Shown: positions 13,471-56,066 of the stretch, piece after piece
Position numbering within the stretch: position 1 is the stretch's first letter
Layout of the letters: each line of letters begins with the position of its first letter
Assembly (NCBI RefSeq): GCF_003334255.1
Contig: NZ_QOWU01000014.1
Source of the DNA: Escherichia coli
Lineage (GTDB): Bacteria > Pseudomonadota > Gammaproteobacteria > Enterobacterales > Enterobacteriaceae
DNA: 64,000 nt
Strand: one strand, 5' to 3'
Notes under the pieces: model-generated
Seen by the model: only the letters and a program-made list of their open reading frames with translations
What the model was told of the DNA's origin: nothing
Database searches by the model: none
Program-made: the position numbers and the translations under genes

Positions 13471-13506
13471 TAGGGCGGATAAGATGCGTCAGCATCGCAT
13501 CCGACA
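13471..13506. repeat. REP-like palindromic element
   Basis: tagggcggataagatgcgtcagcatcgcatccgaca resembles the REP consensus. Confidence 0.5.
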
Positions 13507-13530
13507 CCAACCCGCACGCTAAATATAAAA

Positions 13531-13558
13531 GGGGAGCGGTTTCCCGCTCCCCTTTGGT
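13531..13558 (-). terminator. Intrinsic terminator downstream of tisB
   Basis: Hairpin ggggagcgg-tttc-ccgctcccc, followed on the minus strand by a T-rich run. Confidence 0.5.
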
Positions 13559-13574
13559 GCGACTTGAATCTGAA

Positions 13575-13664
13575 TTACTTCAGGTATTTCAGAACAGCAT
13601 CAAGCAGTTGCAGTGCTGCAACAATGAGTTTGAGGATAAGAATGGCGATATCCACCAGGTTCAT
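13575..13664 (-). CDS. tisB: Type I toxin TisB (29-aa membrane peptide)
   Basis: Minus-strand ATGAACCTGGTGGATATCGCC… translates to MNLVDIAILILKLIVAALQLLDAVLKYLK then stop. Too short for the ORF track. Confidence 0.85.
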   Translation of the reverse strand: MNLVDIAILILKLIVAALQLLDAVLKYLK

Positions 13665-13898
13665 ACGCGTCTCCTGTGGTTCAGGAGCACTGCCAGCTGA
13701 CGTACCTTTCCGCTGCCTGTTGCCAGCTGTTGTGCACGCGGTATCTCAAGGAGAAACGTTGTGCTTGTTGACATAACACAGTGTGCTCACGCGGGGTTAA
13801 GGCGCTGACGGCACCACCCGTTTCAGCCAGGACTTAGTGCGCCGGGTAACGATGCGGCCCCCGCATAACACATTGCGTACAGTGATATTATAGAAGTT

Positions 13899-13918
13899 TA
13901 CTGTATAAATAAACAGTA
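13899..13918. promoter_or_regulatory. LexA (SOS) box between divergent tisAB and istR
   Basis: TACTGTATAAATAAACAGTA, a perfect CTGT-N8-ACAG. Confidence 0.8.
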
Positions 13919-14026
13919 ATATTTGGACAAAACGCAAACTGTGATCGATACTCAACTATGCACTAAATACGTCAAAATTCGTGCCGAAATTGCGCGTTCT
14001 GCGCGGAACACGTATACTTTCAGTGT

Positions 14027-14101
14027 TGACATAATACAGTGTGCTTTGCGGTTACCAGCCGCAGGCGACTGACGAAACCTCGCTCCGGCGGGGTTTTTTG
14101 T
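14027..14101 (+). ncRNA. istR: IstR-1 antitoxin sRNA (the longer IstR-2 would start ~65 nt upstream)
   Basis: …gttgacataatacagtgtgctttgcggttaccagccgcaggcgactgacgaaacctcgctccggcggggtttttt matches my recollection of IstR ending in its intrinsic terminator. 5' end is approximate. Confidence 0.65.
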
Positions 14102-14228
14102 TATCTGCAATTCAGTACAAAACGTGATCAACCCCTCAATTTTCCCTTGCTGAAAAATTTTCCATTGTCTCCCCTGTAAAGCTGTGCTTGTATAAATATT
14201 GTTAAACACAAAACCAACAAGGTCCCCA

Positions 14229-14327
14229 ATGACTACTTCCATGCTCAACGCAAAACTACTACCAACTGCGCCATCCGCCGCAGTGGTCGTCGTGCGTGTG
14301 GTGGTGGTCGTCGGCAATGCGCCGTAG
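14229..14327 (+). CDS. ivbL: ilvB operon leader peptide
   Basis: ATG…TAG encodes MTTSMLNAKLLPTAPSAAVVVVRVVVVVGNAP (Val/Leu-rich), directly upstream of an attenuator hairpin. Confidence 0.85.
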   Translation: MTTSMLNAKLLPTAPSAAVVVVRVVVVVGNAP

Positions 14328-14432: not shown

Positions 14433-16121
14433 ATGGCAAGTTCGGGCACAACATCGACGCGTAAGCGCTTTACCGGCGCAGAATTTATCGTTCATTTCCT
14501 GGAACAGCAGGGCATTAAGATTGTGACAGGCATTCCGGGCGGTTCTATCCTGCCTGTTTACGATGCCTTAAGCCAAAGCACGCAAATCCGCCATATTCTG
14601 GCCCGTCATGAACAGGGCGCGGGCTTTATCGCTCAGGGAATGGCGCGCACCGACGGTAAACCGGCGGTCTGTATGGCCTGTAGCGGACCGGGTGCGACTA
14701 ACCTGGTGACCGCCATTGCCGATGCGCGGCTGGACTCCATCCCGCTGATTTGCATCACTGGTCAGGTTCCCGCCTCGATGATCGGCACCGACGCCTTCCA
14801 GGAAGTGGACACCTACGGCATCTCTATCCCCATCACCAAACACAACTATCTGGTCAGACATATCGAAGAACTCCCGCAGGTCATGAGCGATGCCTTCCGC
14901 ATTGCGCAATCAGGCCGCCCAGGCCCGGTGTGGATAGACATTCCTAAGGATGTGCAAACGGCAGTTTTTGAGATTGAAACACAGCCCGCTATGGCAGAAA
15001 AAGCCGCCGCCCCCGCCTTTAGCGAAGAAAGCATTCGTGACGCAGCGGCGATGATTAACGCTGCCAAACGCCCGGTGCTTTATCTGGGCGGCGGTGTGAT
15101 CAATGCGCCCGCACGGGTGCGTGAACTGGCGGAGAAAGCGCAACTGCCTACCACCATGACTTTAATGGCGCTGGGCATGTTGCCAAAAGCGCATCCGTTG
15201 TCGCTGGGTATGCTGGGGATGCACGGCGTGCGCAGCACCAACTATATTTTGCAGGAGGCGGATTTGTTGATAGTGCTCGGTGCGCGTTTTGATGACCGGG
15301 CGATTGGCAAAACCGAGCAGTTCTGTCCGAATGCCAAAATCATTCATGTCGATATCGACCGTGCAGAGCTGGGTAAAATCAAGCAGCCGCACGTGGCGAT
15401 TCAGGCGGATGTTGATGACGTGCTGGCGCAGTTGATCCCGCTGGTGGAAGCGCAACCGCGTGCAGAGTGGCACCAGTTGGTAGCGGATTTGCAGCGTGAG
15501 TTTCCGTGTCCAATCCCGAAAGCGTGCGATCCGTTAAGCCATTACGGCCTGATCAACGCCGTTGCCGCCTGTGTCGATGACAATGCAATTATCACCACCG
15601 ACGTTGGTCAGCATCAGATGTGGACCGCGCAAGCTTATCCGCTCAATCGCCCACGCCAGTGGCTGACCTCCGGTGGGCTGGGCACGATGGGTTTTGGCCT
15701 GCCTGCGGCGATTGGCGCTGCGCTGGCGAACCCGGATCGCAAAGTGTTGTGTTTCTCCGGCGACGGCAGCCTGATGATGAATATTCAGGAGATGGCGACC
15801 GCCAGTGAAAATCAGCTGGATGTCAAAATCATTCTGATGAACAACGAAGCGCTGGGGCTGGTGCATCAGCAACAGAGTCTGTTCTACGAGCAAGGCGTTT
15901 TTGCCGCCACCTATCCGGGCAAAATCAACTTTATGCAGATTGCCGCCGGATTCGGCCTCGAAACCTGTGATTTGAATAACGAAGCCGATCCGCAGGCTTC
16001 ATTGCAGGAAATCATCAATCGCCCTGGCCCGGCGCTGATCCATGTGCGCATTGATGCCGAAGAAAAAGTTTACCCGATGGTGCCGCCAGGTGCGGCGAAT
16101 ACTGAAATGGTGGGGGAATAA
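14433..16121 (+). CDS. ilvB: Acetolactate synthase I, large subunit
   Basis: 562-aa ORF with thiamine-pyrophosphate enzyme motifs; starts MASSGTTSTRKRFTGAEFIVHFLEQQGIK. Confidence 0.95.
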   Translation: MASSGTTSTRKRFTGAEFIVHFLEQQGIKIVTGIPGGSILPVYDALSQSTQIRHILARHEQGAGFIAQGMARTDGKPAVCMACSGPGATNLVTAIADARLDSIPLICITGQVPASMIGTDAFQEVDTYGISIPITKHNYLVRHIEELPQVMSDAFRIAQSGRPGPVWIDIPKDVQTAVFEIETQPAMAEKAAAPAFSEESIRDAAAMINAAKRPVLYLGGGVINAPARVRELAEKAQLPTTMTLMALGMLPKAHPLSLGMLGMHGVRSTNYILQEADLLIVLGARFDDRAIGKTEQFCPNAKIIHVDIDRAELGKIKQPHVAIQADVDDVLAQLIPLVEAQPRAEWHQLVADLQREFPCPIPKACDPLSHYGLINAVAACVDDNAIITTDVGQHQMWTAQAYPLNRPRQWLTSGGLGTMGFGLPAAIGAALANPDRKVLCFSGDGSLMMNIQEMATASENQLDVKIILMNNEALGLVHQQQSLFYEQGVFAATYPGKINFMQIAAGFGLETCDLNNEADPQASLQEIINRPGPALIHVRIDAEEKVYPMVPPGAANTEMVGE

Positions 16122-55969: not shown

Positions 55970-55991
55970 TTCTCGCTTTGATGTAACGAAA

Positions 55992-56017
55992 AACCTCGCT
56001 CCGGCGGGGTTTTTTGT
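55992..56017 (+). terminator. Intrinsic terminator after rpmG
   Basis: cctcgc-tccg-gcgggg hairpin followed by six T; the same 33 nt occur at 14076..14108. Confidence 0.65.
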
Positions 56018-56066
56018 TATCTGCTTACCCCCATATTGATTGCATCTGTTCATTCCTGGAGATGCT

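What the first reader, a model, noticed from the sequence alone, without database searches (positions are those of the whole stretch)
13767..14051. Imperfect direct repeat linking the tisAB leader to the 5' end of IstR-1
gttgacataaCacagtgtgct (13767..13787) and gttgacataaTacagtgtgct (14025..14045) match at 20 of 21 positions on the same strand. Because tisAB mRNA is the minus strand and IstR the plus strand, this duplication is exactly what gives a ~21-nt antisense duplex between the sRNA and the toxin mRNA about 100 nt upstream of the tisB start codon.
Basis: seen in the sequence. Interest (0 to 1): 0.35.

Follow-up and report, generated by a model that had tools for sequence, protein, structure and literature searches.

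The report
Known tisB/IstR-1 antisense pairing repeat
The two near-identical 21-base stretches are the well-studied pairing site between the E. coli toxin mRNA tisB and its antitoxin small RNA IstR-1, so the finding is correct but already textbook knowledge.

Summary

- **Repeat:** window 13767-13787 and 14025-14045 match at 20 of 21 positions on the + strand, which is not a chance match. At the DNA level the repeat is 22 nt (13766/14024 also match).
- **Locus:** it is 100% identical to E. coli K-12-type tisB/istR. tisB is on the − strand, Rfam istR is on the + strand (150 bits), and a LexA box lies between them.
- **Position of the copies:** copy 2 begins at the predicted +1 of the 75-nt IstR-1. 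Copy 1 lies 102 nt upstream of the tisB AUG.
- **The mismatch:** the single C/T difference gives a G·U wobble, so the duplex is uninterrupted.
- **Literature:** the "22-nt istR repeat" is described explicitly. IstR-1 pairs with the ribosome standby site of the processed +42 tisB mRNA, blocks 30S/S1 loading, and triggers RNase III cleavage to the +106 form.
- **What I added:** in 52 further loci from about 15 enterobacterial genera the 22-mer pair is conserved. Four duplex positions changed on both sides, every change is a transition, the flanks vary freely, and the IstR-1 promoter is fixed in position.
- **No longer duplication:** nothing supports a repeat beyond 22 nt.

Novelty is "already known" and interest is low.

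The parts
13766..13788 (-). IstR-1 target in the tisAB 5' leader (repeat copy 1; core 13767-13787). This is the single-stranded ribosome standby site of the +42 mRNA. The RNase III product +106 maps to about 13775, inside it.
   Evidence: Literature. Conserved in 53 of 53 loci.
14025..14045 (+). 5' pairing segment of IstR-1 (repeat copy 2). Nucleotides 1-12 are predicted to be unpaired in free IstR-1.
14025..14099 (+). IstR-1 sRNA (75 nt): 5' pairing segment, internal stem-loop, and Rho-independent terminator.
   Evidence: The Rfam hit covers it, the terminator is, and the promoter position is.
13960..14099 (+). IstR-2, the longer (~140 nt) SOS-induced isoform that shares its 3' end with IstR-1. 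The start coordinate is approximate.
   Evidence: Promoter-like TGGACA(13924)-17-GATACT(13952), the same hexamers published in PMC11264685. The Rfam model starts at 13970.
13990..14018 (+). IstR-1 promoter: −35 TTGCGC (13990-13995) and −10 TATACT (14013-14018).
   Evidence: Sequence. The hexamers match the PMC11264685 table. The position is fixed in 53 of 53 loci.
13900..13919 (.). LexA (SOS) box TACTGTATAAATAAACAGTA between the divergent tisAB and istR-2 promoters.
   Evidence: Sequence. CTG-N10-CAG is present at the same offset in all 53 loci. Literature.
13887..13892 (-). tisAB −10 hexamer TATAAT. The inferred +1 is about 13880.
   Evidence: Sequence and the PMC11264685 table. The +1 is inferred from spacing and from the published 359-nt transcript length.
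13522..13880 (-). tisAB primary transcript (~359 nt; ends approximate). The +42 processed 5' end is at about 13839.
   Evidence: Terminator 13555-13528 on the − strand, the 359-nt length, and the isoforms.
13575..13664 (-). tisB coding sequence: a 29-aa membrane toxin of the K-12 type, with N at position 2.
13661..13774 (-). tisA ORF (37 aa). Its ATG (13772-13774) lies inside repeat copy 1. It is not a conserved gene.
   Evidence: The ATG is absent in 37 of 53 loci, and the ORF length ranges from 12 to 46 aa where it is present.

Best explanation
This is the E. coli K-12-type tisB/istR-1 type I toxin-antitoxin locus, and the repeat is its RNA-RNA recognition module.

The SOS-induced tisAB mRNA is transcribed from the − strand. 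The constitutive 75-nt sRNA IstR-1 is transcribed divergently from the + strand, without overlap. Because the two copies sit on the same DNA strand, the first 21-22 nt of IstR-1 are complementary to mRNA nt ~94-114, about 100 nt upstream of the tisB start codon.

That mRNA segment is the single-stranded ribosome standby site, exposed only after the first 41 nt of the leader are removed (the +42 mRNA). IstR-1 pairing excludes 30S/S1 from the standby site, and the duplex is cut by RNase III to give the untranslatable +106 RNA.

- Shown here: the anatomy, the strand assignment, the pairing energetics and the cross-genus co-variation.
- Taken from the literature: standby competition, processing and RNase III cleavage.
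For: Anatomy and pairing in the window:
- The repeat is real and non-random.
- Rfam istR lies on the + strand at 150 bits.
- The tisB ORF and its terminator lie on the − strand.
- The locus is 100% identical to E. coli records that annotate tisB there.
- The 21-mer duplex is −33.5 kcal/mol and continuous, with one G·U. This site is the best target for IstR-1 nt 1-30 anywhere in the 64 kb (−45.2, against −29.1 for the next unrelated site).
- Cofold ddG is −26.1 kcal/mol with +42 and −22.8 with +1. It drops to −10.9 with +106 and −11.5 when the IstR-1 5' 21 nt are scrambled. The interaction is anchored at 13767.

Cross-genus evidence:
- 52 independent loci plus the window all keep the 22-mer pair at a spacing of 237-258 nt.
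- 98.4% of cells are paired. 4 pairs changed on both sides (0 of 500 shuffles reach that), and none did in the ±1 slid registers.
- All 14 variable columns in the 22-mers are transition-only. All 24 flank columns vary, 22 of them with transversions.
- The IstR-1 −10 and −35 are positionally fixed in 53 of 53 loci, so conservation starts exactly at the sRNA +1.
- Rfam istR scores above gathering, on the strand opposite tisB, in 15 of 15 divergent loci.

Literature:
- 21 nt of complementarity, standby site and RNase III: PMC4147584.
- +42/+106 isoforms and 30S/S1 displacement by IstR-1: PMC6690012.
- 'The 22-nt istR repeat': PMC2577331.
Against: Nothing substantial.
- Co-variation of two direct copies is also what a shared DNA-binding protein or gene conversion would produce, so it does not prove RNA pairing on its own.
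- The excess of G·U-compatible one-sided changes (positions 1, 11, 20 and 22) over A·C mismatches (positions 5, 7 and 21) is only suggestive.
- Fourteen loci carry an A·C mismatch at duplex position 5 or 7.
- The transcript ends (+1 at about 13880; IstR-2 start at about 13960) are inferred from promoter spacing and published lengths, not measured here.
- PMC6690012 calls the pairing 'perfect', whereas the K-12 sequence has a G·U at position 11.
Confidence: 0.97

Rival explanations
1. The two copies are DNA-level operator sites for one sequence-specific protein. The 22-mer contains the near-palindrome CACAGTGTG. Conservation and co-variation would then reflect protein recognition rather than RNA pairing.
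For: Both copies are strongly conserved in sequence as well as co-varying: 12 of 22 pairs never vary. An internal near-palindrome is present.
Against: - Conservation of copy 2 begins exactly at the IstR-1 transcription start, while the 6 nt just upstream vary freely.
- One-sided differences are mostly of the type that keeps G·U pairs.
- Published in vitro work shows direct IstR-1 binding to the mRNA, 30S displacement and RNase III cleavage.
- No such protein is known.
Confidence: 0.02
2. The repeat is a neutral remnant of a recent local duplication, or is kept identical by gene conversion, with no selected function.
For: The copies are direct repeats only 258 nt apart.
Against: - No homology extends beyond the 22-mer in any of 53 loci.
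- The pair is kept across about 15 genera while the adjacent bases vary freely.
- 22 nt is a very short tract for homologous recombination (an argument from general knowledge, not tested here).
- The copies are not identical in most genera, and they differ mainly in pairing-compatible ways.
Confidence: 0.01

Closest known systems
tisB/istR-1 type I toxin-antitoxin system of E. coli K-12 (Vogel et al. 2004; Darfeuille et al. 2007; Romilly et al. 2019)
   Same: Everything matches. The sequence is identical. So are the 29-aa TisB with N2, the IstR RNA, the LexA box, the published promoter hexamers and the 21-22 nt complementarity ~100 nt upstream of tisB.
   Different: Nothing. This is that locus.
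zorO/orzO, shoB/ohsC and dinQ/agrB (divergent, non-overlapping type I TA pairs of E. coli)
   Same: The antitoxin sRNA is encoded divergently and apart from the toxin gene, and it pairs through a short repeat-derived stretch in the long 5' UTR. The toxin mRNA needs 5' processing to become active. zorO/orzO also involves RNase III and a proposed standby site.
   Different: The toxins and sRNA sequences are unrelated. AgrB acts by inducing a structure that sequesters the Shine-Dalgarno sequence rather than by standby competition.
hok/sok (cis-antisense type I TA)
   Same: A small membrane toxin, an inert primary mRNA activated by processing, an antisense RNA, and RNase III cleavage of the duplex.
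   Different: Sok overlaps its target gene, so its complementarity is automatic and complete. Here the genes do not overlap, and complementarity exists only because of the 22-nt direct repeat.

Membership tests
tisB/istR-1 type I toxin-antitoxin locus | 29-aa hydrophobic TisB toxin ORF | tested here: met
   ORF 13575-13664 (−), MNLVDIAILILKLIVAALQLLDAVLKYLK. RefSeq annotates it as tisB in identical E. coli DNA.
tisB/istR-1 type I toxin-antitoxin locus | IstR sRNA gene (Rfam RF01400), divergent from tisB and not overlapping it | tested here: met
   RF01400 hit at 13970-14099 (+), 150.1 bits against a gathering score of 45. The tisAB +1 is at about 13880 and the IstR-2 start at about 13960, so the transcripts do not overlap.
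tisB/istR-1 type I toxin-antitoxin locus | LexA box controlling tisAB | tested here: met
   TACTGTATAAATAAACAGTA at 13900-13919 overlaps the tisAB promoter region. CTG-N10-CAG is conserved in 53 of 53 loci. LexA binding itself was not tested.
tisB/istR-1 type I toxin-antitoxin locus | About 21 nt of complementarity between the IstR-1 5' end and the tisAB leader, far upstream of the tisB RBS | tested here: met
   Co-variation across genera.
tisB/istR-1 type I toxin-antitoxin locus | Standby-site competition, 5' processing to +42, and RNase III cleavage to +106 | not testable with these tools
   Literature only. In silico, +106 falls at about 13775 inside the duplex, and the +106 RNA loses most of the pairing energy.
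cis-encoded (overlapping) antisense type I TA, hok/sok type | The antitoxin is transcribed from the strand opposite its own target segment | tested here: not met
   The target (13767-13787) and the sRNA pairing segment (14025-14045) are separate loci 258 nt apart on the same DNA strand.

The most novel reading that the evidence does not exclude
The cross-genus pattern suggests the 22-mer is under a three-way constraint, which would explain why it evolves only by transitions while the flanks vary freely. It must pair with IstR-1, pair with the mRNA's own 5' end in the inert +1 form (a helix kept in 22 of 22 leaders), and serve as a 30S/S1 standby platform. On this reading, the naturally tolerated A·C mismatches at duplex positions 5 and 7 (14 loci) and the wobbles at positions 1, 11, 20 and 22 mark positions that are dispensable for repression. 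tisA, whose ATG lies inside the repeat and is lost in 37 of 53 loci, would not be a real gene. I did not find this comparative description in the papers I read, but it only refines a known mechanism.
Probability: 0.5. Interest if true: 0.2.

Novelty: already known. Interest (0 to 1): 0.08.

Why it matters
tisB/istR-1 is the reference case for two ideas. One is ribosome standby: an antisense RNA represses translation about 100 nt away from the start codon. The other is SOS-induced, toxin-driven antibiotic persistence. Recognising the repeat correctly identifies the regulatory core of that system, but it adds nothing to what was published between 2004 and 2019. The small added value here is comparative. 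The pairing module, the sRNA promoter position and the leader's self-sequestering helix are kept across about 15 enterobacterial genera.

Tried and rejected
1. **Extended duplication.** duplexfold and nhmmer hinted that similarity continued beyond the 22-mer. Direct tests on the window (178 of 1000 shuffles reach the score) and on 53 loci (mean z 0.01 for the 5' flank and 0.73 for the 3' flank) do not support this. The raw duplexfold value for full-length IstR-1 (−78 kcal/mol) ignores intramolecular structure, and shuffled controls reach −53 ± 4, so I did not use it.
2. **Protein-based locus search.** I replaced it with a back-translated DNA pattern for QLLDAVLKY. That returned 13 chance hits in unrelated phyla, which I discarded.
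3. **Wobble asymmetry as proof of RNA-level selection.** Four G·U-compatible positions against three A·C positions is only suggestive.
4. **An sRNA at the second copy of the IstR terminator (55990-56023).** There is no Rfam hit there. It is the rpmG terminator.

Full report
**Observation.** Allowing up to 3 mismatches, they are the only two matches in the 64 kb window. Chance expectation is 0.01, and 0 of 100 shuffles gave two. The preceding base (T at 13766 and 14024) also matches, giving a 22-nt DNA repeat. Beyond that the flanks are no more alike than shuffled sequence (178 of 1000 shuffles).

**What the locus is.** Rfam's istR model (RF01400) matches 13970-14099 on the + strand at 150.1 bits, full length. 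On the − strand lie the 29-aa tisB ORF (13575-13664), the overlapping 37-aa tisA ORF (13661-13774) and a strong terminator at 13555-13528. A consensus LexA box (TACTGTATAAATAAACAGTA, 13900-13919) sits between the divergent genes. The 651-bp region is 100% identical to E. coli chromosomes, including a K-12 J53 derivative. There RefSeq annotates emrD, ysdE, tisB, ivbL and ilvB in this order, but no istR feature. TisB has N at position 2, the MG1655-type variant.

The promoter hexamers published for MG1655 are all present at the expected places:
- tisAB −10 TATAAT.
- IstR-1 −35 TTGCGC and −10 TATACT.
- IstR-2 −35 TGGACA and −10 GATACT.

The IstR-1 −10 (14013-14018) puts +1 at G14025, the first base of copy 2, and 14025-14099 is 75 nt. 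The tisAB −10 (13892-13887) puts the mRNA +1 near 13880. With the published 359-nt transcript length, that ends at the terminator. On this numbering the target is mRNA nt 94-114, the tisB AUG is at nt 217, +42 is about 13839, and +106 is about 13775, inside the repeat. These transcript ends are inferred, not measured.

**Pairing.** The mRNA carries the reverse complement of copy 1, and IstR-1 carries copy 2 itself, so the two RNAs are complementary.
- The single C/T difference places IstR U11 opposite mRNA G, a G·U wobble. The helix is therefore continuous, and U22·G adds a 22nd pair.
- The 21-mer duplex is −33.5 kcal/mol.
- Scanning the whole window in 400-nt tiles with IstR-1 nt 1-30, this site is the best non-self target (−45.2, against −29.1 for the next).
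- Free IstR-1 is predicted to leave nt 1-12 unpaired, a plausible seed.
- Cofolding, which charges for intramolecular unfolding, gives ddG −26.1 kcal/mol with +42 mRNA and −22.8 with +1. It gives only −10.9 with +106 and −11.5 when the sRNA's first 21 nt are scrambled.

**Natural co-variation test.** To avoid conditioning on the repeat, I scanned one genome per species for a back-translated TisB motif, QLLDAVLKY. Of the 69 hits, 56 encode a 29-aa TisB. They come from Escherichia, Salmonella, Citrobacter, Enterobacter, Leclercia, Lelliottia, Trabulsiella, Atlantibacter, Franconibacter, Phytobacter, Kosakonia, Superficieibacter, Pseudenterobacter, Huaxiibacter and Intestinirhabdus.

An istR profile found istR in every locus with enough sequence, plus a secondary same-strand hit in the leader. 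Rfam confirmed istR above gathering, opposite tisB, in 15 of 15 divergent loci. In 52 loci plus the window both copies could be read:
- The 22-mer pair is always present, 237-258 nt apart.
- Written as a duplex, 98.4% of cells pair.
- Four positions (6, 7, 12 and 16) changed on both sides and kept the pair (0 of 500 shuffles reach that). Registers slid by ±1 have none.
- One-sided differences are G·U-compatible at positions 1, 11, 20 and 22.
- A·C mismatches occur at position 5 (10 loci), position 7 (4 loci) and position 21 (1 locus).
- All 14 variable columns in the two 22-mers are transition-only. All 24 columns in the 6-nt flanks vary, 22 of them with transversions.
- The IstR-1 −10 (TATACT, TATAGT or TATAAT) and −35 (TTGCGN) are at fixed positions in 53 of 53 loci, while the 6-nt spacer before +1 varies freely. 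Conservation therefore begins exactly at the sRNA's first base.

A caveat applies. Co-variation of two direct copies would also arise from a shared DNA-binding protein or from gene conversion. What argues for RNA pairing is the transcription-start boundary, the wobble bias and, above all, the published experiments.

**Mechanism (from the literature).**
- IstR-1 has 21 nt of complementarity to the tisB 5' UTR.
- The primary (+1) mRNA is inert.
- Removing 41 nt gives the +42 mRNA, in which a single-stranded region about 100 nt upstream of the RBS serves as a ribosome standby site.
- IstR-1 pairs there, displaces 30S subunits and protein S1, and RNase III cuts the duplex to give the inert +106 RNA (PMC4147584; PMC6690012; PMC5668327).
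- Weel-Sneve et al. 2008 explicitly list 'the 22-nt sequence AGCACACTGTGTTATGTCAACA', the reverse complement of 13766-13787, as 'the 22-nt istR repeat' with a previously described antisense role (PMC2577331).
- IstR-2 carries the same segment but is reported not to repress tisB.

Consistent with the inert +1 form, a consensus fold of 22 diverse leaders keeps a helix between the mRNA's 5' end and the 5' half of the target. One-sided A-U/G·U changes occur on the 5' side, so covariation support for this helix is weak.

**Other comparative points.**
- The distance from the target to the tisB AUG falls into two classes: 67-71 nt (42 loci) and 101-106 nt (11 loci, including Escherichia and Salmonella). 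The '~100 nt' figure is therefore clade-specific.
- The tisA ATG lies inside the repeat. It is destroyed wherever position 7 is G (37 of 53 loci), and the ORF length varies from 12 to 46 aa where it is present. This supports the view that tisA is not a functional gene.

**Verdict.** The feature is the known recognition element of a well-characterised system. Novelty is 'already known' and interest is low.

Noticed in passing
window 55990-56023 (+), compared with 14074-14107 (+): A 33-of-34-nt copy of the IstR terminator plus its 3' flank (AAACCTCGCTCCGGCGGGGTTTTTTGTTATCTG) lies 42 kb away. It sits directly after rpmG (L33, 55802-55969) and before mutM, so it is the rpmBG terminator. It explains the 'median 2 places per genome' in the E. 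coli search. There is no Rfam family there. Whether the two terminators share an origin or are homogenised is unknown.
   Followed up: partly
window 13661-13774 (−), and loci L001-L068: The tisA start codon (13772-13774) lies inside repeat copy 1. It is absent in 37 of 53 loci, wherever repeat position 7 is G, and the ORF length varies from 12 to 46 aa where it is present. tisA is therefore not conserved as a gene.
   Followed up: yes
loci (for example L021, L033, L007, L019, L039; L008, L036, L063, L047): Natural A·C mismatches occur in the IstR-1/tisB duplex. Position 5 is mismatched in Atlantibacter, Franconibacter, Phytobacter, Superficieibacter and Kosakonia (10 loci). Position 7 is mismatched in three Citrobacter species and Intestinirhabdus (4 loci). 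These may be evolutionary intermediates or tolerated positions.
   Followed up: partly
window 13665-13766, and the related loci: There are two spacing classes between the IstR-1 target and the tisB AUG: 67-71 nt in most genera and 101-106 nt in Escherichia, Salmonella, some Citrobacter and Intestinirhabdus. This amounts to an indel of roughly 33 nt in the leader.
   Followed up: partly
window 13500-14150, searched against E. coli genomes: Only 4396 of 5426 complete E. coli genomes gave a megablast match, and 4151 gave a match covering at least 80% of the query. About a fifth of the genomes may therefore lack the locus or carry a divergent version of it. I did not investigate this.
   Followed up: no
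L070 (NZ_CP158674.1), equivalent to window 13500-14150: The RefSeq/PGAP annotation of identical K-12-type DNA lists tisB, ysdE, ivbL and ilvB. It has no istR ncRNA feature, although Rfam detects istR at 150 bits.
   Followed up: yes
window 13800-13838 (−), and the aligned leaders (A2 columns 52-96): The leader segment AGTCCTGGCTGAAACGGGTGGTGCCGTCAG is almost invariant across about 15 genera and forms two small hairpins. It probably corresponds to the '5' structure element' of the standby site described in PMC6690012, but I did not check that correspondence.
   Followed up: partly
window 14229-14327 (+) and 14433-16121 (+): The ivbL leader peptide (MTTSMLNAKLLPTAPSAAVVVVRVVVVVGNAP) with its attenuator, followed by ilvB, lies immediately downstream of istR. 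This is ordinary, known context.
   Followed up: no
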